Assembly: GCA_905331485.1 (NCBI GenBank)
Contig: CAJNYT010000045.1
Coordinates: 4,015-39,825, forward strand
DNA: 35,811 nt
DNA from: Rotaria socialis
Lineage: Eukaryota
Direction: 5' to 3'
Part shown: positions 15,008-29,739 of the stretch, piece by piece
Position numbering within the stretch: the stretch's first letter is position 1
Layout of the letters: each line of letters starts with the position of its first letter
Notes under the pieces: model-generated
What the model was told of the DNA's origin: nothing
The model's database searches: none
What the model saw: the letters and a program-made list of their open reading frames with translations, nothing else
Position numbers and translations under genes: made by a program

Positions 15008-18000
15008 TTAATTAGGTGCTCCACCCGCATTACTAATTGTATTTGCATTTAAACCACCTAAAAGTCCTTGTCCAAAACCCATTAGATTGATAGGTGAATG
15101 GCCATCAGTAACCAACATGGACTGAAGACCGAGGGCTTGCAAAAGTTTAACTTGTGTATCTGGACCTGAAGTTGCAATGGCTTGTATTGTTGATGCACCG
15201 ATTGATTCAATTTGTAATTTGAATTTGTCGGTTTCAATACGTGACATTTCAGCTTTTTTAGTAATTTCTAATTCATTCTGTTCACGTAAATAGTTAATTT
15301 CAGCTTCTCGTGCCAATTTTAAACGTGATATTTCAGCTTCGGCTTCAATTCGCGCAGCGTCAGCCCTGAGACGAGCTAAACAAATGAAAATTCATTTGTT
15401 CAATTGCATTGGAGAAATAAAATAAAATATCTATACCTTGTTCAACAGACGCTCGTCCTTCAATGAGAGCAGATTCGGCTCGACTTTGTGCTTCGGCTTT
15501 AGCTTGACCTGTGACTTCAACAGCCGATGATTCAGCTTGTAACAGGAGAAGTTGTTTTCGAACCTCTTCAGCTTCAGCATCATCTTTAATACGTTGACGT
15601 TCTAGTAAACCTTTTGCTTCTTGTTCTCGACGCGAAGCTTCATGCTTAGCAGCAGCTTCTTGTGAATTTGTTGTAATCTAAAATGCAGACATACACGAAA
15701 ATTAATCACCACAATTCAATCGATTGTCTTTTATCTTACTTCAATGGCTAATTGAACACTCTTCTGAAGAGCATCTCGCGTTCGTTGATCAACTGGTTCA
15801 ACACTTTGAATATCAATCGATGTAATGACAAGATTGTTTTGTGGAAAAATAAAGTTATCTCGTATTTTTTGATTTGCATCAAGACCAAATACAGACGTAC
15901 GAATAATTTGAGCTGAATTCTTATGAAAATCATCAAATTGTGTACCAGCAACAGCACCACGAACACGTGAAGCTATAGCTTTAGCTGCATCACCAACAAA
16001 ATCTGGTACAGAAAAAAGTTTGGATGCTTCTTTGTCGTCATCAATATCTGATATTTCAAAATGCCAATTGTATGAAAGTTGAAGTGAAAGACGAGCATGA
16101 TCAGCTGTTTCAATAACAATCACATCAGTAAAAAAATCTGGTCCAAGAAGTAAGCAAAGTGTTTGAATTTGATTTGGTTTTTTTGGTACACTGCCACTCA
16201 ATGAAAGTAATGTAAAATGCTCATCGGGTCCAAGCATAACAAGTTCAGGGCCAAATATAATACGTGCTTTCTTAGCTTTATAATCATAAATTTGTACAGC
16301 GGCATTGTGTGGTACACGATAGGTAACTAGTTTTGATTTGTCACGTTTGGCAGCATTTACGTTTGAACTTGTTGCTGTTGTTGCTGCTTGTTGTTGAGAT
16401 TGATTTTTATCTGATGTTTGACTTCGTGTGAGAACATTTCGTTCACTTAAAGCATCACGAGACAATAGTTCTTCAACTTTCTTAGGTAATTCTTTTTGCC
16501 ATAATTCTTCATCTTGTGTTAACATATAAGTTTCACCAATGACGGCGCGGACACAACCAGTTTTGATATCACGAACATAGATACCTTCATTGGCATCCAA
16601 TGGCAAAGCTTTTCGACGTGTAACAACTTCAACTTGTGTTGGAGGAATATATTCACTAAAATTCACAAGAATAATATTAATTTAGACCTTTCATAGAGAC
16701 ATTAAATATCTTACGTTGGACCACGAATCATCCAACGATCACCGGGATTTCGATTAACATTAGCTTGCGTATCTTTAAATGCTTCAATACATTTTAGAAT
16801 AACACCTTCATCTTCACCTAAGATAAACACATCTTGAATACCATTTTGAAGTTTTTCACCGGGTTGAAGAAAGAATGATTTTTCACCGACAACAAGTTTC
16901 TACGAAAGAAAACAAAATCAACATAATTAATCGCTCTGATTTCATTGAGATAAAAAACTTGCTTTTTTCCCTAATTGTGGTTTTCCATCAGCAACTGGAT
17001 CGATTATAACACAATATTGACGTGATGTCAATGTTACTACATTAACAACAGAAACTAATTGTTCATAGACACTAAGAATGTGTGTTTCAGTGTCAGCAAG
17101 TGTTACAAGCCATTCTTCACCATTCATACGTTCTTTACCGAATTCATCGGTAAAAGTTTTTAATGCACAAAGATGAAGAGCTTTTTTATCGGTTAATACA
17201 TAAGCATTTTCTACTGAAACCACAGTTTCCTAAAATTAACAAGATTTGAATTTCGCATACCGACGAGATTTTGCACTTACATATGCAAGTGGTAAATATG
17301 CACCGGTCTTTTTAATTAACCACTCTTCACCAGTAACACGCCGTTGGCCTGTACGATCAACGATTTCTTTTTTTGCGCAAAGCCTTATAGCTTGATTAGA
17401 CGAGATAACTGTAGCACGAATTTGTTCTTCAACGCTAACTTCTTTACGAGGAATATAAGTAGCTGGCCCTTCAAATAACCATTCATCTCCAGCCCGACGT
17501 TGTTCGCCTGCTGTTTCATCTTGAAAATCTAGGACAGCTTTTAAGCGTAACGCTGAATTAGCAGGAACAACTTTTAATGGAGTAACAGGCTTTAAAATAT
17601 AAAAAGTAGTTTTGTTTTATTCTCAATAGAAAATGTTTAGTGTTTTTTTTTATACTTGACGAAGAATTTCACCGGGATAGAGAGGAAAAGGTGATTGATC
17701 AGGTTGTGAAAGACGAATTTCCAAGTCAGCATGAACAAGTTTCGCTTGTCCATTGCTATCGAAAATAACTGCGCCAGCATCATTGCGTACTACAGGTGAT
17801 TCAATAACACAGTAATGACGGGGCCTAAAAACACATCCAAATTTTCACTTTCTTTCAGCGTCTTTTCTTAGATTAACAATTATAAACGTACGGTACTGTA
17901 ATCATTTTTTCTGGTCCGATGGTGACTGTTTCATTGTCTTGTTTAATAAATGTTTTGGGACCAATTTCAAGTCTCGTAACATTTGTATTTTGATCCAAAA

Positions 18001-18079
18001 CATGAATATAATAATAAGGAGGAATTCGATAAAGTGGACCAGAATCACTTTTCTTATCCATAGTTGTTGCTTTACTCAT
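15008..18079 (-). CDS. MVP: Major vault protein, copy 2 (8 exons, 881 aa), convergent with copy 1
   Basis: Exons (minus strand, 5-prime to 3-prime): 18079-17892, 17824-17656, 17589-17281, 17229-16963, 16899-16715, 16655-15740, 15680-15437, 15375-15008 (stop TAA). Lengths sum to 2646 nt, phase-consistent. Product [78 protein letters not shown]...[58 protein letters not shown]...[24 protein letters not shown] is about 65-70% identical to copy 1. A 28-aa low-complexity insertion ([28 protein letters not shown]) falls in the variable loop. Intron 4 uses a GC donor (aaaaaa|GCAAGT...tttcgtag|aaactt). An upstream in-frame TTG-initiated extension shown in the ORF track is not a real start. Confidence 0.88.
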
Positions 18080-18149
18080 TGTGTATGTGTTTGTAGAATG
18101 TTCGTATGTCAGTAACAATCTATAGTCAAGAAAAAAAAACGTTGATTCT

Positions 18150-18160: not shown

Positions 18161-18919
18161 TCAAAATATAAAGACTATGGTATTGCATGTTGAATGATTA
18201 AGTATTTTTCAAAGCATTGTGCAAGTTTGCCCCATGTCAGAGAAAGGAAGAAAAGAAAAACAAATATCGCGGTAAAATCTATATTTCACTCTCTTTTACA
18301 TCTTGGTGTTCTTGCACAAGTTTTTATTTTTTCAAGCTTTTTGTTTTCAAGGCTATTTGCAGTGCAGAAATAGGCAAATATTTTGGAGGTTTAATTCAGC
18401 AGTGAATAGAATTGCGTTTGAAAAAGAAACCTCAGAATTACTCATTCTGATAAATTACCTAGAAATTACACCGAAATGAGAAACGAAGCAAATTTCAACC
18501 AAATATGCAACCGACAAAAACAAAAATTTATCAGTTTTACTTTCATAGATCAATCCAGAAGTGATTCTGAAAAATGTAGAGTATGACGTTTTTTTTACCA
18601 GAAGGTAGTAGTGTTGTAAAGAATTTGTTTTTAACCGAGCATTGCAAGCAAACTGCTGAAAGATAAATGGGGCATTTGCTTTTAAAGAAACAAAAAAGGT
18701 CATTCGTGGAAAATTTATCACAGATTATTTCAAACTGATGTAACTGTGATCATATTGAATGAAGATTCAAATCAATCGTAGTGCCACATCATTTTACAGT
18801 TTTTCTCAATCTACGCATTTTATATATACAGTTGAGAATGATGCAAAAGAATTCTGAGCACAACAGATAAATAATTTTACAATAAGGATATTAAATGATG
18901 CATTGTCATACTAATGAGG

Positions 18920-19100
18920 TTTTGCTGTATATTGACAATGTTACTTGATCGTAGATACAAAATTGATCGTCGCTGTCGACTGCATCACATCCTAAGAACA
19001 TCAATAGAAATCTTGTCTTCGATGGAATCACATTCCCAATGGAAAGATGTGCATGCAGATGTTTATTACTTCCGCACACTCAAGACGACGAATATCTTTC
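18920..19100 (-). pseudogene. Truncated third copy of the 3-prime end of the pentapeptide-repeat gene (duplication remnant)
   Basis: acttgatcgtagatacaaaattgatcgtcgctgtcgactgcatcacatcc...atcaatagaaatcttgtcttcgatggaatcac is homologous to 20540-20650 (gene A tail) and 24305-24420 (gene B tail). No upstream remainder of the gene is present. Confidence 0.4.
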
Positions 19101-20715
19101 GAACTCGCTATCAACTTTTATGTTTATCTCAACTATCAACTCTGTCTCTCAATTACATTTGAGCTTGAAAAGAGGGTATCAGTGTGAATTGTTCTTATGT
19201 TGTTTGTCGTTGTAATATAACAATGGCGAGAAAATATAGTTTTCAAAAACTTCATATCGTTGCAAGAACGAGTAGTAGCACTTAAAAACAAGTCAAAGAA
19301 ACAAGATAGACGAATAGTATTTGGCTTGAGTATATGACTTCGTGATTTAAAATACAATAGAAAATATTATGCAAACAGACCGAGATTTCATCATATTTTT
19401 ATCGGGTTATTAAAGAAAAAGGTCATATAATGTCACTTTTCTTAGCTGACACAAGATAGTACCTCTTAGTTGTCTGCTTGCCAATTCTCTGTTGAGTTGA
19501 TTACTCTTTATCGTTAGCCTATGTGAAAATAAATCTATAATCATATGTCTATGCACGTTATAATACACGTGTGAATAAATTGACATTGTTTTCAGAACAA
19601 TGCCCCAATTTTCTACTTGGTGTATCAATGTGACTACCTGATTACTATTGGGTTATATTCTTCGAAGCTACATCACCAAGAGAACAAACAGCAATGACCT
19701 CTCTACCGATGCCAATAGATGATTCTCCGAGATTGGTTTACATTTTCAGTATGGTTTCTATTATTATCTTCCTACTGATTATCGTCTGCTATATCTCAAT
19801 CGTTAGAGAGTGCTTAGAAGCAACACCTAGAAGAACACTGCCGACACCTCGATACTTTCAAATAGATGAGTATCCACAATTGGTCAACTCCTATGCTGAG
19901 CAACCCCTCGGTCAACCCGTGGAATTCTAACGCCATCAGATATCACCCATAATCGATCTCAACCAATATCAACAATGAATTTCGAAAACTTAAACTATAC
20001 CGATAATATTATTCAGTTTATTGGTTGACAACTTTATTGAAATAGTTTATTTCTTGGCAAGGATATATGTTGCTGATAAATGGGTGCCTAATATTGCTCT
20101 TTATACGAATGCTCCAATAACCGACTTCTGTCTTATGTTGTTCCACTTTTTGGTTAACTAGTGCACTAGTCTCTCCTTAATATGAAGAAGCTAAAAGCAG
20201 GCTCTTTAATTAAATGTTTCTTTCCTGATTGCTTTTAATCATAATCCAAACCTTATGCGATTGCAACCTATTTTCAGAGTGGTACACATCAAATAATTCG
20301 ATTGAGCATTTAATGCGTGAGAATGGCATGTATATTCTCCGGTTAATGTCAACATTTTCTCAAAAATTGCCAGGATGAGTTTACATATTTCGATAAAGAC
20401 AACTTCTTTCTGCAGATACAATTCAATTGTTATTGTTTTCAAAAATATGTTATACATAAAATTGACATATTCGTGTCGTAATGCGTATTTACCAAAAAAA
20501 ATCCTTTATCATCTTTACGAGATCTTTCTAAAAACTGATAATGTTATTTGATCAAAGAGACAAAATTGGTCGTTGCTACCAACTGTATTACATCCCAGCG
20601 ATACTGCTATAAATCTTGTCGTTGGTGGGATCATATTAACAAGTGAATGTTGATGGAATGACGATGTCAAATTTTTCATATGAACTTAAAATACAAGCAC
20701 AATAACAATAGTGAA

Positions 20716-22057
20716 TCATGAAAGCCCTACCGGCAACGACTTACTAAATACTGAACTTCCAAAACCAAATGAATTTTTATTTTGTGAAAAATGTACTGTC
20801 ATCGTTAACGAATCTTTGTCATTTGGATTTTTCAATCCGAACCATCCAAATAAATTGAACATAGCTAGTTTTAAATCGATCAAACGAGAGAAGTTTTGAA
20901 CGGACAAAAGTTGATAGTAGGTCATGTCTTTATCTATTTTGAAAAAGCAATCGTCTTCGACTTTAGACATATTCACTGGTACGTTTGTTTGAAAATGAAT
21001 AATATTTAGTGGTTCATTAGTGATGACACCATTCCAATGTGGCGTTACATTGAGATGACACTACAAAAAAACGAAATGAAAAACACTCCACAACGGGATA
21101 TATGACAAAACTAACTTCTGGCTCTGCTCGACCATGCATAAGCAAATTCTGTGAATCGATAATACTGAACGTGCCATCCGGTAAGCGAGTATTGAGCAAA
21201 ATTACTGGCTTCAAGCCGAGAAAGGGTGGTGGATTCAATAAGGAATTTCCAATAACACTTTGATACAAATCAACATTTGTGAAATCTACATTCTGATAAA
21301 CTCCATCACCAATGAATGATTGACGAAGATCAGCGCTCGTGAACTTTGCTTCATACATTTGGTTGTCACGAAATTTTGCCTTATTCAAATTGGCATTCTG
21401 AAAATTCGCAAGCGCAAGATTGTTCAACAGAAAGTTAGAACCAACCATTGACGCACTCTCAAACACTGCATATGTGAGAGTACAACCATCGAATATGACA
21501 TTTTCTGCGATGACTCCAGGCAAATAAAGAAAGGAAAGATCACAGACTTGTGTCGAAGATTGCACAAGCTTCATTCCACTAAAATCCGCCCCACGTATAT
21601 CAATTTTCGGTGTGATATCGTGTCGAATCAGACGACTTTCATACAAAAAAAGAAACACATCACGCTTACGGGTAGGGTCAAGATTTCTTAGGACCGTTAA
21701 TGTTTGAACGCGAATTTGCAGAAGAGACTTGTTAATATTTTGTTCAAAATTTTCATCTAAAAGAAGATCTCTCATATCATCCATATACTCTTTGAAGAGA
21801 ATCCTTCGATTCGTTTCATCGGCTTGTCTTTGATCTTGGTCACGTGTCGCCCTAGCCGCAGCATCTTGTTGTAACGTGAAGACAATCGTAAACACTCCAA
21901 AAACAATAGTTGGCAATGCAGCAAGTGTAAGCTTGAATATATTCATACATTTAATTGGCTTTGATTTCTTACGAGTCACCACATCAGATGACGTTTGTGC
22001 CGCAGATGATGACACGATTGAATTTCCTCGTGTGAAATCAAATGAACTGTTATCCAT
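20716..22057 (-). CDS. Pentapeptide-repeat single-pass membrane protein, tandem copy A (2 exons, 428 aa; C-terminal tail lost to stop)
   Basis: Exon 1 22057-21116, exon 2 21060-20716. The 55-bp intron has donor gaa|GTTAGT and acceptor tttttttgtag|tgtcat. The reading frame continues across the intron, and the exon 2 frame is conserved codon-for-codon with copy B. Product: about 45-aa N-terminal tail, hydrophobic helix LTLAALPTIVFGVFTIVFTL, a juxtamembrane charged segment, then about 24 consecutive pentapeptide repeats (ADFSG MKLVQ ... ANFQN ANLNK AKFRD NQMYE AKFTS ADLRQ ... VDFTN VDLYQ), then CHLNVTPHW...IIHFQTNVPVNMSKVEDDCFFKIDKD...FGLKNPNDKDSL...SKSLPVGLS*. The downstream 195 bp (20520-20715) still aligns in frame with copy B's C-terminal extension but carries TGA and TAA codons. 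Confidence 0.75.
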
Positions 22058-23379
22058 AGTTTGTTGAAAGATGAGAGCACGAAAAATTTCACGTATTATA
22101 ATAAATTCAAGGTTGATAGTATCTAAAATCTATATTGTGTTGTGATTCGTTCGAACATACAAAAAAAGTAAAAAGAACCAGTTATTTATACCTGTGTGGG
22201 AAGCTTTATATTAACATAATAGGCATTCGCAGCAAATTGAGTTTGACGGATGTCTATGATATCCTCTGAATCTGACCTCATCGTCAATTGTAACGTTTTC
22301 TATCACGAACTATATATTCCGAATGACGTACCTTTCACAATAGTTTTTCATAGAGTAGTCATTGTATCGATAGATAAAACAAAACAATCTCTCGACTGAT
22401 CTAACAGCTTTGTAGAATGAGAAAAAACATCTTCTATCATTGGCCAAAAGCGATCTTTTGAAAAATGTCAATTTATTAGCATAATTCACAAGATCAGTGT
22501 TGAGTGGCTAATGACATTTCTATTGAAAGTAAATGAATTCAATGTGTTAGTCAAAATATCAAGATATATTGTAGAAAAAAAAGTAGAACATCATCTAATA
22601 CATTGGATTAACATTTTTCTTTGTCATAAAAGTCGAAATTTCAATTGCATCTGATTAAAACTACCTGCTGTGACAATACGAAACCAGGCTTTGTGCTCTT
22701 CTGATGAGTAGTATGGATACGATGAAATATTTTCTGATTTCGACACAAACATTCTGCTAACAGTTACTTTTCGGACATCTGAGAATCCTTGGATTATTTG
22801 ATAATCTTCTCTCATGAACTAGGGAAAAGTCTACTGATGCCAATGCAATAGTAGCGATTGTTACAGTCATATTATTAGTCAACCCAATATTCTTTGCAAT
22901 TATGTCTACTTTTCGTATCTTGAAATTCAACAAATGGGTAGTGCACAGCAATTATTCAAATTGTATATTCTTCGAATAGCTGTTGGCAGTTAGAGACCTG
23001 CAGGTTGTAGATAAGTGTTCTGTTCTGCCCTAGTAGTACAGGGTAGATTGTAGGGTATAACTATTTTAATCTGCCAACCTGTAATTAACCTAATGTATTC
23101 CGTATTGTTGGTGTCTCGTCAGACCTATTCAGTAGGAAATGTTTGGAAGCCTGTAGCCTAGCTCACCATTGATTGAGATCGGTCTCGGTCACGGTGCATA
23201 AAACCAGATGTGCCGCTACTATATACTTTATACATCTATCTACTAAGTTTTCCACATAGTTTAGTTTCTTAGTTGACCACTTTATTAAGATGATTTATTT
23301 CTGGACGAAAAAGTCCTTTGCTCATAAATGGGTACCTAATATTGCTATTTTTAGTCTTCTCCTATAACTGACGGCTGCC

Positions 23380-23913
23380 TTTTTGTGTACTCAAAAAGTG
23401 AGTACACTCTAGAATCGGCCAGTGTGTACATCCGGCCGGCCGGTCGTAGGCACGATAACTTTCGAAAGGAGAGTCAGATCGTGATAAAATTTTCCATACA
23501 GTTCAATCGCATGAATATCTCGACCGAGTTCGAAGATGAGAAGGATCCTTCAAGAAATGGTTGAGTTATCGAAAAAATTGACATTTTTGACCATACCATC
23601 CCTGAGGAGAGGTACAGGGATTCTTTTCAAAAAACAAATTTTTCCCAGAATTATTCACAACATATACAAATCGACTCAGTTTTTAACGCTGATTTCGAAT
23701 CTGATATTAGTTTTGAACTAAATCGTAGCTTTCTAACGAAACATCGCCTGAAAGCCGTCTCAAAATGCACAAAAACTGCATCCAGAAATCAAATTGTCTA
23801 GTTTCTCATGATAAATTTGGTGTTCAGACATTTATTCTAGAATGACTCATATGTCTCATGCACTTTTTGCAGTACACATAACTCTCGGATGAACTCCGAA
23901 GTTTCCACATTTA
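23380..23913 (+). mobile_element. Interspersed repeat family, copy 3 (about 534 bp); an insertion present in duplication unit 2 only
   Basis: The flanks cctataactgacggctgcc | ... | ttctgttctactttttgtccagccgatgcac are contiguous in the paralogous unit 1 sequence (ccaataaccgacttctgtc ttatgttgttccactttttggttaactagtgcac at about 20110-20160). The element is therefore a post-duplication insertion. Same termini as copies 1 and 2. Confidence 0.7.
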
Positions 23914-24279
23914 TTCTGTTCTACTTTTTGTCCAGCCGATGCACTATTTTTTCATTGTTATCAAAAGACTAAACATATGTTTTTTAATGAAATATTTCTT
24001 TCATAATTGCTTTTAATCATTAACCAAAGCTTAGATGGTTATAATTTTTATCGTGGATTAGCTTTTATATGTGTACTTGGAGAATAGCCGCCAGCCTATT
24101 CGTTCATCAATGTGAAAATTTTGTTTTCAACAATTGTGAGTAAGATCATATGACGTTTCGAGTTCGTAGCTACATTTCACAGAACTATAATATCTATGAA
24201 GGCATCGTCGTGTTGAGAACACACAGTAATTTTTTTATTTTTTTCAAAAACATTGTATACATAAGATTCATTGTAATAT

Positions 24280-25818
24280 CTACAAGGTCTTTCTATAAAT
24301 TGATAATTTCACTTGATCGAATAGACAAAATTGATCGTTACTACTAGACACAATACACGCCAGCAATAGCACTATAAATTTTGTCTTCTCCGGAATGATA
24401 TTGACAAGAGAAAGTCGCTGGAACGATGTCAAATTCTTTATAACCACTTGAAATACAAGCAGAATAAATACAGTGAATAGTGAAAACTCGGTCGATAATG
24501 ACTTACTAAATATTGAACTTGCAACATCAATTGAATTTCTGTTCGGTGAAAAATGTATAGTCGCCAATAAGGAATCCATGTCATTTGGATTTTTCAATCC
24601 AAACCATGCTGATAAATTGAACATGGCTAATTTAAGATCAATCATATGAGAGAAGTTTTGAACAGATATGTGTTGGTAACTGGTCAGATCTTTATCAATT
24701 ATAAAGAAACAGGCGTCTCCGACTTGAGACACGTTCGCTGGTACATTTGCTTGAAAATGAATAATTTTCATTGGGTCATTGTTCTTTACATCTCTCCAAT
24801 GTGACGTGAAATTGAGATGGCACTAGAAGAAGCGCAATGAAAAATATTCTAAAACGCAATATTCTGTAAAACTAACTTCCGTCTCAGCTTGATCACTCAA
24901 AATCAAATTTTGCGAATTGATATTACTGAACGAGCCGTTCGGTATACGAGTATTCATCAAAATATTTGGCTTAAAGCCGAGATACACTATTGGATTCAAT
25001 AATTCATCTCCAATGATACATTGATATAGATCTACATTAGTTAAATCCATATTTTGAACAACGCCACCATGAATGATTGATTGAACGAGATAGGCACCGG
25101 TAAACTGCGTTTGATAAAGCTGATCGTCGTGAAATTGAGCTTTAGTAAGATTGGTATTTTGAAAATTAGCACGTAATAGATCACTCAAAATAAATTAAGA
25201 GCCAGCCATCGATGAATTCTCAAATACGGCGTCTATGAGAGTACAACCATCGAATGTGGTATTTTCGAGGTACACTCCGGGTAAATGAAGAAAGGGAAAT
25301 TCGCATGACTGTGTTGATGTTTGTATGAGTTTCATTCCACTAAAATCTGCCCCACGTATATCAATATTTGGTGTGTGATCGTGTCGAATTAAACGGCTTT
25401 CATACAGAAAAATAAAAACATCCCGTTTACGAGCCCGATCAAGATACATCAAAACGGTCAATGTTTGTACTCGAATCTGTAATAGAGACTTGTTGATATT
25501 TTGTTCGAAATTTTCATCTAAAAGAAGATCTCTCATATCATCCATATACTCTTTGAAGAGAATCCTTCGATTCGTTTCATCGGCTTGTCTTTGATCTTGG
25601 TCACGTGTCGCCCTAGCCGCAGCATCTTGTTGTAACGTGAAGACAATCGTAAACACTCCAAAAACAATAGTTGGCAATGCAGCAAGTGCAAGCTTGAATA
25701 TATTCATACATTTAATTGACTTTGTTTTCTTACGAGTCACCACATCAGATGACGTTTGTCCCACAGATGATGACACGATTGAATGTTCTCGTTTGAAATC
25801 AATTGCATTTTTGCCCAT
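24280..25818 (-). pseudogene. Pentapeptide-repeat single-pass membrane protein, tandem copy B; in-frame TAA inside the repeat domain (probable pseudogene or needs sequence verification)
   Basis: Exon 1 25818-24877 (942 nt, same length as copy A exon 1), 54-bp intron (gaa|GTTAGT ... ttcttctag|tgccat), exon 2 24822-24280. TAA at 25195-25197 replaces the AAC codon of copy A (MAGS* versus MVGSN) in the same frame with no frameshift. Exon 2 extends about 65 codons beyond copy A's stop and encodes a second hydrophobic segment FSLFTVFILLVFQVVI. The N-terminal 60-residue TM region is nucleotide-identical to copy A. Confidence 0.7.
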
Positions 25819-26900: not shown

Positions 26901-27062
26901 TACAAGAAACAAACTAAGCGTATTTTTATTATATGTTTTACAAACAAAAACAAAGGTTAATTATACAAAAACATCAAAACGACTTATTCAATATGAACAA
27001 TCGATATGATGGAATCATAGTTAAGTCTTTTTCGGAAAAAGAAAACAATAGCGCAATTATCT

Positions 27063-29739
27063 TTAAACAGCTGTTGGCGTGACACTTTGCATGTCGCCAT
27101 GAACTCGAAATCTGTACAAACATGTATAAGCTGGATTACCCCAATTTGATGTTATTTGTACTTCAATATATTCAACAACGGGTACATTAGCAATCTAAAA
27201 TAGAATAGAATTAGTTATATTGAAAAAAAAAACATATAAACGTCACATACTTGAGGTTTAAATCTTTGAAGTGCCGCACCATTTTCAGCATCATAATTAT
27301 ATCGACCAAGAACAGTACCTTCCTTATCATTTTTATCTTTCAAAGCCTAACAAAAACAAACAGACACAAAGAATATTATTCTTATAATAAAAGATTAAAT
27401 TTTCTTTTCATTTACATAAACTGTAAAATTATTTGGTGCACTATTTGTATGTCCAACGATAGAAATACTTTTCGATAGATGTTCAAGTACGAATTCAGTT
27501 GGTATAACAGGTACAGCCAATCGAATAACTACACTTCCATGATTACCTTTAAATGGAAAACATTGACCAGGCATACGTCCATGCTAGAAGATAAATTTTA
27601 TTTAAAAATTCAAACAAAAAAATTCAAGAACAAACTTTAATGATTATATCTGGTTGTTTTGACATATGAACAATAGGAATGCCAAGAAATTTCACAACTT
27701 TTTGTTGAGGTTCATCTGTATATTCTTCACAACGTGTATCAACAACTTTTCCTCCTAGAAACAAAAACGATGATGATAGCTTTCATTACTCTTTTCAATC
27801 TATTTACCATTAGCTTCTAATGCATAATCAGCTTGTCCAGTTTCATCAGCTGAATATTCTTCGATTAATTTTCGAGCCAACTAGAACAAAAATTTTTATT
27901 TAAAAAAATATTGATTTTCCTTAAGATTTAATTTACTTGAATGAATTCTCTTTCTTGATCAGGTTTTAAAGCATGTCGTCTAGAAAACAGCAGAAAATTT
28001 GTATTTTTTTGTTAGTACCTTCGATTAAACTTACGTTCCAACAACTTTCTCACGTTCTTGTTTAAGTTCTTCGATAAGTTTATTGACTTTTTGTAGGCCG
28101 GCTTCATAATATTCCTTAGCATTATCAGTTGTTGTTTCAACAACACCAACAACACGATTTTTAACACCACGAAACGAGCCTAGTAATTTGTTTTTCGTCG
28201 AAGAGCAAAAATTGCTTAACGATTTTAATACAGAATTTTTAACATTTATTGTTGAACGATAAACTTTTTGAAGCTTTAGAAGGCCAAGATTATATGTACG
28301 AAAACGAGTAAAATCAGTAGTATGTTGAATATTTTGACAAATGGTATTCACTTTTGAATTTCGATTATTTGCAAATGGTTTACAAGCCAAATAAGGTACT
28401 AAAAAAAATAGATATAAATAGATTAATAAGAATATAAATAATTGACCTACATGCATAAACAGTAAGTAAAATAATAAGTGGTATAAGTATCCACCATGGT
28501 AAAACTTTGAATTTGTTCCAAACTGTATCAAAAATATCGATAGGTAAATGGAAAGCTTTTTTTAAGCAACAAACAGTTGTTTTACAGCAATTCCTTAAAT
28601 GTTTACAGCTACCATCATCGTGATGATCTTTTCGGTGTTTTGTTGCTTTACGTTGTTGATGTTGTTGTTCACTCTCATTATCGTGTGGTGTTGAATGAAC
28701 TGGACGTGAACGAAGATTATAGCCTGTTGCTCGACTACCTGATGCTGATGATTGAGATGATGTACGAATAAATCTTGTACCACCGATTGTCCCTTCACTT
28801 GTTGGTGAATCTGGTGTTGATGCTTGTTGATGACCACCAGTAAGTTGACATACACGATCGCAAACAGCACCATAGCCATTGGCTAATTGTGATCGAACGG
28901 TACAAAATAGATGACACGGTAATGAGAGTAATGATGCTGTACGATTTTGATCTTCATTATGTAAACTACGACGAGCCATGACGGGAATCTCGTATGTAGT
29001 TGTTTGTAATGTAGGTGCATAGGCATTGCTAGAGAGAATAATAAACAATGGATTTAATTTGTCTTAAAAATCGATTCGCTACGATATGAATTATTCGTAA
29101 ATAGCTTTCATCTATTCGATCTTGATCGTTCGAAGCCTCCTACTGAGATTGACATTTTAGAAGAGAAGCGAATAAATAATTATGTTATATATAATCTACA
29201 TCGTAGCGAAAGTTGTAATAGAAATTTTCATTTTACTCTACACTTCCGGTAGAGCACATCTGCTTAGGGAATATCAGATAAAGTTGATTAATACAGTAGT
29301 GCATGTATGTGCATCCGGTTGAAGAAGCTTATAATCACCCTTACTAATCAATAACAATAGGCTCAAATAATAAGTACAATATCTGACGACTACTCAACAA
29401 TCAATGGATTTGATTTCCTCTATTTTAAATACTCACCTATGAGCATATGTATAACTTGTCGATTGGAGATCACTGGAATAAAAAAAAGTAAAAAATTTTG
29501 ATAAAAATTTAATTGAGGCAAATATTTTACTGAGTAGGTGATTTAGTACTTTCGAGTACTTCTTGTACGCTTCGATTAGCAGCAGCCGATGCCATTCGAC
29601 GAGTTACTACTGAATCAGTTCGTGCTTCGGTTTCAATATACATTGGTCGGCGAGTTGTTGTCGACGAACTCGTAGTTGTTGTTCTATTCGATGATGATCG
29701 AACTTCAGTTATATCATCATCGGTGAGTGTATCAGTCAT
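27063..29739 (-). CDS. SUN-domain (Sad1/UNC-84) inner-nuclear-membrane protein, 9 exons, 593 aa
   Basis: Exons (minus): 29739-29531, 29028-28451, 28398-28035, 27979-27937, 27880-27808, 27754-27636, 27583-27416, 27346-27251, 27194-27063 (stop TAA at 27063-27065). Lengths sum to 1782 nt, phase-consistent. Donors include gtaaaat, gtaggt, gtaagt, gtaaat, gtttgt, gtatgt. Product: S/T-rich N-terminus (MTDTLTDDDITEVRSSSNRTTTTSSS...), TM helix VLPWWILIPLIILLTVYALPYL, a coiled-coil-like region, then a C-terminal SUN domain ...DYALEANGGKVVDTRCEEYTDEPQQKVVKFLGIPIVHMSKQPDIIIKHGRMPGQCFPFKGNHGSVVIRLAVPVIPTEFVLEHLSKSISIVGHTNSAPNNFTVYALKDKNDKEGTVLGRYNYDAENGAALQRFKPQIANVPVVEYIEVQITSNWGNPAYTCLYRFRVHGDMQ. This matches the conserved blocks of SUN1/SUN2/UNC-84 (GxCWxFxG, TLEHIPK, SSAPKDFAVYG, NWGHPEYTCLYRFRVHG). 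The ORF track's M at 29048 and at 29748 are TTG codons; the true starts are the ATG at 29739, with a first splice joining exon 1 to the acceptor at 29029. Confidence 0.85.

What the first reader, a model, noticed from the sequence alone, without database searches (positions are those of the whole stretch)
20520..25200. Each tandem copy carries a different premature stop; neither encodes the full ancestral protein
Codon-by-codon alignment of the two genes shows two distinct lesions.
- Copy B has TAA (25195-25197) where copy A has AAC, in the middle of the repeat domain.
- Copy A has TGA and then TAA (about 20690-20715 and downstream) where copy B reads through for a further 65 codons, including a hydrophobic segment, to a TAG at 24280 that is homologous to copy A's final TAA near 20520.

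So A is C-terminally truncated and B is nonsense-interrupted. Possible explanations: both are decaying; B is a pseudogene while A has shed a dispensable tail; or the stops reflect sequencing errors or allelic variants captured in the assembly.
Basis: seen in the sequence. Interest (0 to 1): 0.55.

Follow-up and report, generated by a model that had tools for sequence, protein, structure and literature searches.

The report
One intact gene, one null allele
Of two neighbouring duplicate rotifer genes, one is intact because its supposed stop codons lie inside a short intron, and the other carries a real premature stop that is a natural variant in Rotaria socialis; this is ordinary.

Summary
The window comes from the bdelloid rotifer Rotaria socialis. 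It holds two tandem three-exon genes on the minus strand. Each encodes a membrane-anchored pentapeptide-repeat protein.

Copy A (22057-20515) is not truncated. Its TGA (20716-20718) and TAA (20686-20688) lie inside a 60-nt GTAAGT...AG intron (20744-20685). Splicing gives an intact 475-aa protein. It differs by one residue from an annotated R. socialis protein and has the same length as the R. magnacalcarata ortholog. Both introns sit at the same position and phase in Adineta vaga. The 'hydrophobic segment' in copy B is a translated intron that happens to be stop-free.

Copy B (25818-24280) does carry an in-frame TAA at 25195-25197 (codon 208). It is not an error: it recurs in assemblies of two wild individuals on different haplotypes. 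Other individuals have AAA (Lys) and an intact 474-aa protein. So this is a segregating loss-of-function allele.

R. magnacalcarata has its own independent nonsense allele (TAG, codon 211) alongside intact alleles. One R. socialis individual has a third stop at codon 470.

B evolves faster than A (dN 0.074 vs 0.041), which suggests relaxed constraint. This is an ordinary finding of low interest.

The parts
20515..22057 (-). Copy A: intact three-exon gene. Exon 1 is 22057-21116, exon 2 is 21060-20745, exon 3 is 20684-20515 including the TAA stop at 20515-20517. It encodes a 475-aa membrane-anchored pentapeptide-repeat protein.
   Evidence: The spliced CDS is 1428 nt with no internal stop. It differs by 1 aa from annotated R. 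socialis P0052 and contains P0056 exactly. It is 91% identical and co-linear with the 475-aa R. magnacalcarata protein P0001. Pfam Pentapeptide_4 E=7.5e-16.
21061..21115 (-). Copy A intron 1: 55 nt, GTTAGT...GTAG, phase 0.
   Evidence: Splice model. The junction ...AEPE|CHLNVT... matches P0001, P0048 and P0052. The same position and phase are used in the A. vaga ortholog.
20685..20744 (-). Copy A intron 2: 60 nt, GTAAGT...TTTAAG, phase 1.
   Evidence: The junction ...GSSVF|IHMKNLTS... matches the annotated orthologs. A. vaga has a 56-nt intron at the homologous position and phase. Many ORF-called family fragments from metagenomes end at about this position.
24280..25818 (-). Copy B: three-exon paralog. 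Exon 1 is 25818-24877, exon 2 is 24822-24507, exon 3 is 24446-24280 including the TAG stop at 24280-24282. It spans 474 codons with one internal stop.
   Evidence: The spliced CDS is 1425 nt with a single internal stop at codon 208. Residues 1-207 equal annotated R. socialis protein P0053 exactly. It differs from the intact 474-aa alleles P0047 and P0058 at 12 and 9 positions, counting the stop.
25195..25197 (-). In-frame TAA, codon 208 of copy B, inside the pentapeptide-repeat domain. This is a derived nonsense allele; the ancestral codon is AAA (Lys).
   Evidence: TAA is present in the window, in L004 (Rs_AK27 maxhap) and in L010 (Rs_RS1 reference, a different haplotype). AAA is present in L005-L009, L011 and in all four R. 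magnacalcarata B sequences.
24823..24876 (-). Copy B intron 1: 54 nt, GTTAGT...TCTAG.
   Evidence: Annotated intact alleles P0047 and P0058 read ...AETE|CHLNFT....
24447..24506 (-). Copy B intron 2: 60 nt, GTAAGT...TTCAAG. By chance it has no in-frame stop, so the raw ORF reads through it.
   Evidence: The ORF 24280-24771 translation contains SKSLSTEFSLFTVFILLVFQ. Annotated R. socialis protein P0060 reads ...ASSIF|MVIKNLTSFQ... without those 20 residues. The same intron in R. magnacalcarata B carries an in-frame TGA (P0062 and P0067 end there).
25474..25818 (-). Probable gene-conversion tract: codons 1-115 of copy B are nearly identical to copy A (22057-21713).
   Evidence: Codons 1-115 are 94.2% identical at the nucleotide level, against 73.4% for the rest of exon 1. 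dS between A and B is 0.10 here against 1.07 for codons 116-207; in R. magnacalcarata the values are 0.49 and 0.76. At sites 216-246 the window's B carries copy A's bases, whereas other B alleles carry the R. magnacalcarata B bases.
18915..19058 (-). Relic of the last exon of a third copy, lying between copy A and the major vault protein gene.
   Evidence: tblastn of protein A: residues 429-475, 52% identity, E=1.3e-11. Translation...IPSKTRFLLMFLGCDAVDSDDQFCIYDQVTLSIYSKTS. The DNA repeat family D3 covers the same stretch. No upstream exons were detected.

Best explanation
The window is Rotaria socialis DNA. It carries a tandem pair of paralogous genes, in the order Sad1/UNC - B - A - major vault protein, all on the minus strand.

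Each gene has three exons separated by two very short spliceosomal introns (54-60 nt). Each encodes a single-pass membrane protein with this layout:
- a short basic N-terminus;
- a transmembrane helix at about residues 38-62;
- a helical stalk;
- a pentapeptide-repeat beta-helix at about residues 150-300;
- a rotifer-specific C-terminal beta-sandwich.

Copy A is a normal, intact gene. The TGA and TAA taken for a truncation lie in its second intron and are removed by splicing.

Copy B in this haplotype carries a single-base change, AAA (Lys208) to TAA. This is a naturally occurring loss-of-function allele found in some wild R. socialis individuals, while others have an intact 474-aa gene. If translated, the allele would give a 207-residue product with the membrane anchor and stalk, only about the first third of the beta-helix, and no C-terminal domain.

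Such null alleles are probably tolerated because B is a partly redundant, faster-evolving duplicate of A. R. magnacalcarata carries an independent TAG at codon 211, and another R. socialis individual has a stop at codon 470.

Shown: the gene structures, the intron locations, the reality and polymorphism of the TAA, and the independent stops. Inferred: that splicing occurs as modelled, that the TAA allele is non-functional, and that constraint on B is relaxed.
For: Species and gene models:
- The best hits are annotated Rotaria proteins.
- P0053 (R. socialis, 207 aa) equals window B residues 1-207 exactly. Window A is 1 aa from P0052.

Introns:
- Canonical GT-AG boundaries give 1428-nt and 1425-nt CDSs, with no stop in A and one in B.
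- The junction sequences match public gene models, which were predicted with RNA-seq.
- Both introns are conserved in position and phase in A. vaga L014.

The TAA is real and polymorphic:
- One search shows TAA in the window, L004 and L010, and AAA in six other R. socialis loci.
- Sample mapping: AK27 and RS1 carry TAA; AK11 and AK15 are intact in both reference and maxhap assemblies; AK16 carries a stop at codon 470.
- L010 differs from the window at 9 of 1539 sites, so the two TAA sequences are independent.

Independent R. magnacalcarata allele:
- TAG at codon 211 in L001 and L002; TTG in L012 and L013.

Constraint (NG86):
- A vs B: omega 0.31, so both were long under purifying selection.
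- A orthologs: omega 0.36, dN 0.041.
- B orthologs: omega 0.50, dN 0.074.
- Downstream of codon 208: 0.80 for B against 0.54 for A.
- B holds 20 of the 53 mismatches between the window and L005 across 13.5 kb.

Protein architecture:
- Pfam Pentapeptide_4 scores 58.4 bits against a cut-off of 38.
- The AlphaFold model has a beta-helix with pLDDT above 90.
- Foldseek matches Qnr, MfpA, AlbG and Rfr.
Against: - I could inspect no transcript or read data, so splicing and expression of either copy rest on conserved signals and on other groups' RNA-seq-guided predictions.
- The assemblies are haploid-collapsed. I cannot say whether TAA carriers are heterozygous (one intact allele still present) or homozygous.
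- The rise in dN/dS for B is modest and based on few substitutions. Part of B's excess polymorphism comes from a gene-conversion tract rather than relaxed selection.
- Two independent stops only three codons apart is a roughly 2% coincidence under a uniform model. The 'random decay' explanation does not predict it.
Confidence: 0.85

Rival explanations
1. The TAA in copy B is a sequencing or assembly error, and the gene is intact in this genome.
For: It is a single-base difference from the intact alleles, AAA vs TAA. The source assemblies are short-read SPAdes assemblies from single animals.
Against: The same T is present in the reference-type window and in the separately re-assembled maxhap contig of Rs_AK27 (L004). 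It is also in the Rs_RS1 reference (L010), which differs from the window at 9 other sites in the gene. The T is linked to two further derived bases (gene positions 712 and 732) found only on TAA haplotypes.
Confidence: 0.02
2. Copy B's stop is bypassed in vivo by cryptic splicing or translational readthrough, so the allele still makes a near-full-length protein.
For: There are 52 in-frame GT...AG intervals of 90-399 nt that would remove the TAA. For the R. magnacalcarata TAG allele, annotators modelled a 42-nt or a 90-nt 'intron' that skips the stop (P0003 and P0004).
Against: - None of the candidate donors resembles the GTAAGT/GTTAGT donors of the real introns.
- All would delete 30 or more codons of beta-helix that are kept as coding sequence in copy A, in intact B alleles and in Adineta.
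- The two R. magnacalcarata models disagree with each other, which is typical of a predictor avoiding a stop.
- The RNA-seq-guided annotation of both R. socialis TAA alleles ends the protein at residue 207 (P0053, P0057).
- The stop is not conserved, since other alleles have AAA, unlike programmed readthrough sites.
Confidence: 0.05
3. Copy B is a dead pseudogene in Rotaria generally, and the 'intact' alleles are simply ones that have not yet been hit.
For: - There are three different nonsense alleles in two species (codons 208, 211 and 470), and none in copy A across the same loci.
- B's omega downstream of codon 208 is 0.73-0.80.
- About 4.3% of random substitutions in this CDS create stops, so 2 nonsense among 27 variable sites in R. 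socialis is close to the neutral expectation.
Against: - No frameshift or splice-site loss was seen in any of 13 B sequences.
- Introns and reading frame are intact in all 13.
- Overall omega for the B orthologs is 0.50, and 0.30 in the N-terminal half. That is below 1 after dS of about 0.15.
- A 3-nt in-frame indel is the only length change between the species.
Confidence: 0.15
4. The truncation is functional. A product of about 207-210 residues (anchor plus stalk plus a stub of the beta-helix) has been favoured independently in both species.
For: Independent stops at codons 208 (R. socialis) and 211 (R. magnacalcarata) are only 9 nt apart. The chance under a uniform nonsense model is about 0.02. 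Both are found in more than one wild individual.
Against: - The coincidence was noticed after the fact.
- Codons 208 and 211 are the only two stop-accessible codons within codons 205-211.
- A third stop lies elsewhere, at codon 470.
- Sequence downstream of the stop shows no extra decay on TAA haplotypes, only 2-3 private changes, which fits a young allele.
- No known precedent supports a function for such a fragment.
Confidence: 0.05

Closest known systems
Bacterial and cyanobacterial pentapeptide-repeat proteins (Pfam PF00805/PF13599; e.g. Qnr, MfpA, AlbG, Rfr lumenal proteins)
   Same: The central domain scores above Pfam's curated cut-offs. It is modelled as a right-handed quadrilateral beta-helix with pLDDT above 90. 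Its best structural matches are QnrB1, MfpA, AlbG, HetL and Rfr proteins.
   Different: The rotifer proteins have an N-terminal transmembrane anchor and a helical stalk. They also have a C-terminal beta-sandwich with no detectable homologs outside rotifers. The genes contain spliceosomal introns. Nothing suggests DNA mimicry or gyrase protection, and the function is unknown.
SV2A/B/C luminal domain (PF23894), the pentapeptide beta-helix of animal synaptic vesicle glycoprotein 2
   Same: It is a membrane-tethered, probably lumenal or extracellular, pentapeptide beta-helix in an animal protein. There is a weak Pfam match at residues 218-269.
   Different: The score is 16.4 bits against a cut-off of 29, so it is not a member. 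SV2 is a 12-TM transporter-like protein, whereas this is a single-pass protein.
Segregating loss-of-function (nonsense) alleles in young tandem duplicates
   Same: There is a single derived stop in one paralog. Intact alleles coexist in the species, and the sister paralog is intact and more constrained. Other nonsense alleles of the same gene exist.
   Different: The host is an asexual, degenerate-tetraploid bdelloid. Allele dynamics there are shaped by gene conversion rather than segregation, and a conversion tract from A is visible in this very allele.
Ultra-short bdelloid rotifer introns misread as coding sequence
   Same: The introns are 54-60 nt with GT-AG ends. When their length is a multiple of three and they lack a stop (B intron 2), they read as an in-frame insertion. 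When they hold a stop (A intron 2), they mimic a truncation.
   Different: Nothing is unusual. This is the standard structure for the family in Rotaria and Adineta.

Membership tests
Pentapeptide-repeat protein family (PF00805 / PF13599) | Profile match above the curated gathering score | tested here: met
   Pentapeptide_4 scores 58.4 bits (cut-off 38). Pentapeptide scores 49.6 bits (cut-off 20.2).
Pentapeptide-repeat protein family (PF00805 / PF13599) | Right-handed quadrilateral beta-helix fold | tested here: met
   In the AlphaFold model, residues about 150-300 form regular short strands with pLDDT 91-98. Foldseek matches QnrB1, MfpA, AlbG and Rfr at E 1e-5 to 1e-4. This is a predicted structure, not a solved one.
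Spliceosomal GT-AG intron (for 20685-20744 and the other three) | Canonical GT donor and AG acceptor whose removal restores an open frame co-linear with orthologs | tested here: met
Spliceosomal GT-AG intron (for 20685-20744 and the other three) | Position and phase conserved in distant orthologs | tested here: met
   A. vaga L014 has a 56-nt phase-0 intron and a 56-nt phase-1 intron at the homologous sites.
Spliceosomal GT-AG intron (for 20685-20744 and the other three) | Spliced junction observed in transcripts | not testable with these tools
   No RNA-seq access. There is only indirect support: the public models were predicted with RNA-seq data.
Fixed (unitary) pseudogene, copy B | Disabling mutation fixed in the species | tested here: not met
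   AAA (intact) is found in 6 of 9 R. socialis sequences, and TAA in 3.
Fixed (unitary) pseudogene, copy B | Neutral evolution (dN/dS about 1) and accumulation of frameshifts | tested here: inconclusive
   Omega is 0.50 overall and 0.80 downstream of codon 208. There are no frameshifts or splice-site losses in 13 sequences. The counts are small.
Programmed stop-codon readthrough or recoding site | Stop codon conserved among alleles and orthologs, with a conserved downstream signal | tested here: not met
   The stop is absent from other R. socialis alleles and from R. magnacalcarata at that codon.
SV2 luminal domain (PF23894) | Profile match above the gathering score | tested here: not met
   16.4 bits against a cut-off of 29.
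Jelly-roll carbohydrate-binding / FBA / GOLD-like beta-sandwich (C-terminal domain) | Significant structural similarity and conserved ligand-binding residues | tested here: inconclusive

The most novel reading that the evidence does not exclude
The near-coincident, independently derived stops (codon 208 in R. socialis, codon 211 in R. magnacalcarata) each persist in several wild clones alongside intact alleles. This could reflect selection for a truncated anchor-plus-stalk product, for example a dominant modulator of the full-length A/B proteins. It could instead reflect a local mutational hotspot. Either would replace random decay as the explanation.
Probability: 0.05. Interest if true: 0.4.

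Novelty: new member of a known kind. Interest (0 to 1): 0.15.

Why it matters
Mainly as a caution. In bdelloid rotifers, introns of 50-60 nt can look like in-frame insertions or premature stops when raw DNA is read as continuous ORFs. Half of this finding disappears once the introns are recognised.

The remaining half is a clean, small example of how a tandem duplicate decays in an ancient asexual animal. Three independent nonsense alleles of the faster-evolving paralog coexist with intact alleles. A gene-conversion tract from the healthy paralog is visible in the same allele.

It also flags public gene models for correction:
- R. magnacalcarata P0003 and P0004 'splice around' a stop.
- P0055 fuses B and A.
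- P0053 and P0069 split one null allele into two 'genes'.

Nothing here changes current understanding.

Tried and rejected
1. Bypass of the TAA by splicing. I listed every in-frame GT...AG interval of 30-400 nt spanning it. There are 52 and the shortest is 90 nt. None has a donor like the real introns, and all delete conserved coding sequence. Rejected as unsupported.

2. Homologs of the C-terminal domain. A word-index search with 161 aa found only one R. socialis protein. A full HMMER scan of 1.84 billion representatives with exon 2 found 18 hits, nearly all of them this family or short unannotated fragments that align as its exon 2. No annotated relative was found.

4. Testing whether TAA carriers are heterozygous. 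I looked up which assemblies hold which allele. The reference and maxhap assemblies of an individual show one allele each, so zygosity could not be resolved.

5. Literature search for pentapeptide-repeat proteins in bdelloids. Two papers mention both terms, each using 'pentapeptide repeat' only once; I did not open them.

6. Looking for upstream exons of the relic third copy with tblastn at E up to 10. None was found.


Full report
**What the region is**

The window is AT-rich (about 30-39% GC) with sparse long ORFs, which suggests a eukaryote. The two copies lie on the minus strand about 3.76 kb apart.

A search with the spliced copy-A protein returned only bdelloid rotifer proteins as close hits. 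Rotaria magnacalcarata was 91% identical over 100% of the query at the same length of 475 aa. Adineta steineri, A. vaga and A. ricciae were 46-49% identical. Bacterial pentapeptide proteins appeared only at E of about 1e-10.

Cluster members identify the species as Rotaria socialis:
- The annotated 207-aa R. socialis protein P0053 is identical to residues 1-207 of copy B.
- Copy A differs by one residue from R. socialis P0052.

Gene order is Sad1/UNC - B - A - major vault protein. It is the same in other R. socialis assemblies, and it is consistent across the two R. magnacalcarata contigs that cover the region.

**Gene structure**

Reading the minus strand shows two short introns in each copy, with canonical ends.

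| Feature | Copy A | Copy B |
|---|---|---|
| ATG | 22057 | 25818 |
| Intron 1 | 21115-21061 (55 nt, GTTAGT...AG) | 24876-24823 (54 nt) |
| Intron 2 | 20744-20685 (60 nt, GTAAGT...AG) | 24506-24447 (60 nt) |
| Stop | TAA 20515-20517 | TAG 24280-24282 |
| Spliced CDS | 1428 nt, no internal stop | 1425 nt, one internal stop |

Evidence that the introns are real:
- The spliced junctions (...AEPE|CHLNVT... and ...SSVF|IHMKNL...) are exactly those of the annotated proteins P0001, P0048 and P0052. For B they match P0047, P0058 and P0060.
- Those gene models were predicted with RNA-seq data.
- In Adineta vaga, only one pair of GT-AG intervals reproduces the annotated protein P0006. These are two 56-nt introns at the homologous positions and in the same phases, 0 and 1.
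- Many short ORF-called fragments of this family from metagenomes end at about the position of the intron-2 donor.

**Copy A is intact**

Copy B 'reads through' here only because its 60-nt intron is a multiple of three and happens to lack an in-frame stop. The 'hydrophobic segment' SKSLSTEFSLFTVFILLVFQ is that intron translated. In R. magnacalcarata the same B intron carries an in-frame TGA.

The homology of A's final TAA with B's TAG is correct.

**Copy B's TAA is real**

TAA at 25195-25197 is in frame as codon 208. It lies inside the pentapeptide-repeat domain, whose best Pfam stretch covers residues 185-251. Copy A has AAC at 21434-21436.

I aligned 13 B-gene sequences from public assemblies and mapped them to samples using the tables of Nowell et al. 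2021 (PMC7943196).

| Individual or assembly | Locus | State of copy B |
|---|---|---|
| Window | - | TAA at codon 208 |
| Rs_AK27 maxhap | L004 | TAA; 100% identical to the window, so the window is probably AK27 |
| Rs_RS1 reference | L010 | TAA; 9 differences from the window across the gene |
| Rs_AK11 reference and maxhap | L006, L017 | AAA, intact |
| Rs_AK15 reference and maxhap | L007, L016 | AAA, intact |
| Three newer R. socialis assemblies | L005, L008, L009 | AAA, intact |
| Rs_AK16 reference | L011 | AAA at 208, but a different stop (TAT to TAA) at codon 470 |
| R. magnacalcarata, four sequences | L001, L002, L012, L013 | AAA at codon 208 |

The T is therefore derived. It is linked to two other derived bases (gene positions 712 and 732) found only on TAA haplotypes. 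This rules out a sequencing error and shows a naturally segregating nonsense allele.

The assemblies are haploid-collapsed. I therefore cannot tell whether carriers are heterozygous.

**An independent stop in the sister species**

R. magnacalcarata B has TAG at codon 211, where the other alleles have TTG. It is present in Rg_MAG3 (L002) and in GCA_905332145 (L001). That assembly is the RM9 or RM15 maxhap; the two supplementary tables disagree. The codon is intact in Rg_MAG1 and Rg_MAG2.

The G-to-A change also creates an AG. Annotators' models then removed a 42-nt (P0003) or 90-nt (P0004) in-frame 'intron' to avoid the stop. The two models disagree with each other, so I regard them as prediction artefacts.

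Under a uniform model of stop-creating substitutions, two independent stops fall within three codons with a probability of about 0.02. This is a post-hoc coincidence. I record it but cannot explain it.

**Selection (NG86)**

| Comparison | omega | dN | dS |
|---|---|---|---|
| A vs B (paralogs) | 0.31 | - | 0.55 |
| A orthologs, R. socialis vs R. magnacalcarata | 0.36 | 0.041 | 0.114 |
| B orthologs, intact alleles | 0.50 | 0.074 | 0.147 |

- The A vs B value shows both copies were under purifying selection for most of their history.
- Downstream of codon 208, omega is 0.80 for B against 0.54 for A.
- No frameshift or splice-site loss occurs in any B sequence.
- B holds 20 of the 53 mismatches between the window and L005 across 13.5 kb. 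Several of these belong to a gene-conversion tract.

Evidence for the conversion tract:
- Codons 1-115 of B are 94% identical to A, against 73% further on.
- dS between A and B is 0.10 in codons 1-115 against 1.07 in codons 116-207.
- At sites 216-246 the window's B carries A's bases.

Taken together, B looks like a partly redundant paralog under relaxed constraint. It tolerates null alleles but is not a fixed pseudogene.

**Can the stop be bypassed?**

There are 52 in-frame GT...AG intervals that span the TAA. The shortest is 90 nt. None has a donor like the real introns, and all remove conserved beta-helix sequence.

The public annotation of both TAA alleles ends the protein at residue 207, and in L010 it calls the remainder as a separate 218-aa ORF. 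The stop is not conserved, which argues against programmed readthrough. I give bypass about 5%.

**What the protein is**

The AlphaFold model of the R. magnacalcarata ortholog of copy A (P0001; mean pLDDT 77) shows:
- a long helix from residue 38, which is the hydrophobic anchor IFKL(T/A)LAALPTIVFGVFTIVFTL plus a stalk;
- a small helical region;
- a pentapeptide beta-helix at about residues 150-300, with pLDDT 91-98;
- a C-terminal beta-sandwich at residues 330-475, with pLDDT 70-85.

Foldseek matches the centre to QnrB1, MfpA, AlbG, HetL and Rfr proteins.

The basic residues before the anchor suggest a type II orientation, with the beta-helix outside the cytoplasm. So do the N-x-S/T sequons in the C-terminal half, one of which has an invariant Asn. 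This is inference. The biochemical function is unknown.

The TAA allele would retain only the anchor, the stalk and about the first third of the helix.

**Verdict**

- Copy A's 'lesion' is an intron.
- Copy B's is a real allelic nonsense variant, already visible in GenBank annotation as a 207-aa product.

This is an ordinary case of misread introns plus a segregating null allele in a tandem duplicate. Interest is low.

Noticed in passing
window 18915-19058 (-): A lone relic of the last exon of a third family copy lies between copy A and the major vault protein gene. It is 52% identical to A residues 429-475 (E=1e-11) and has an open frame. No upstream exons were detected, which suggests the array once had three copies.
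   Followed up: partly
window 25474-25818 vs 21713-22057 (-): The first ~115 codons of copies B and A are 94% identical, against about 73% for the rest of exon 1 (dS 0.10 vs 1.07). Alleles differ in how far the A-like bases extend. This looks like recent, allele-specific gene conversion from A into B.
   Followed up: partly
L011 6001-7539 (Rs_AK16, GCA_905331475.1), codon 470 of copy B: This is a third, independent nonsense allele (TAT to TAA) that removes the last five residues. It is annotated as the 469-aa protein P0060.
   Followed up: partly
L001 6263-9438 and L002 8001-11172 (R. magnacalcarata copy B): The public gene models P0003, P0004, P0061, P0063 and P0064 skip the true last exon, which is intact in the DNA, and attach an unrelated low-complexity C-terminus about 1.6 kb away. 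A LINE-like reverse-transcriptase ORF sits just downstream in L001 (9856-13375).
   Followed up: no
L008 9761-11482 (R. socialis GCA_965120245.2, copy A): Copy A is annotated as 516 aa (P0068), with an internal tandem repeat of about 41 residues (ATRDQDQRQADETN...NINK twice). Other assemblies lack it. It is either an assembly artefact or a real in-frame duplication of the stalk.
   Followed up: no
window 17873-18118 (-) and about 27000-29700 (-): The flanking genes are the start of a major vault protein ([25 protein letters not shown]...) and a Sad1/UNC-domain gene. The order Sad1/UNC - B - A is seen in other R. socialis assemblies, and matching Sad1/UNC - B and A - MVP contigs in R. magnacalcarata.
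   Followed up: partly
P0055 (R. socialis, 916 aa) and P0059: These public models fuse copy B to copy A through the intergenic region (...SSIFNTINLEFIIIREIFRALIFQQTMDNSS...). They are annotation artefacts caused by missing B's intron 2 and last exon.
   Followed up: no
PMC7943196 supplementary files 1 and 2: The two supplementary tables assign maxhap assembly GCA_905332145 to different samples, Rg_RM15 in one and Rg_RM9 in the other.
   Followed up: no
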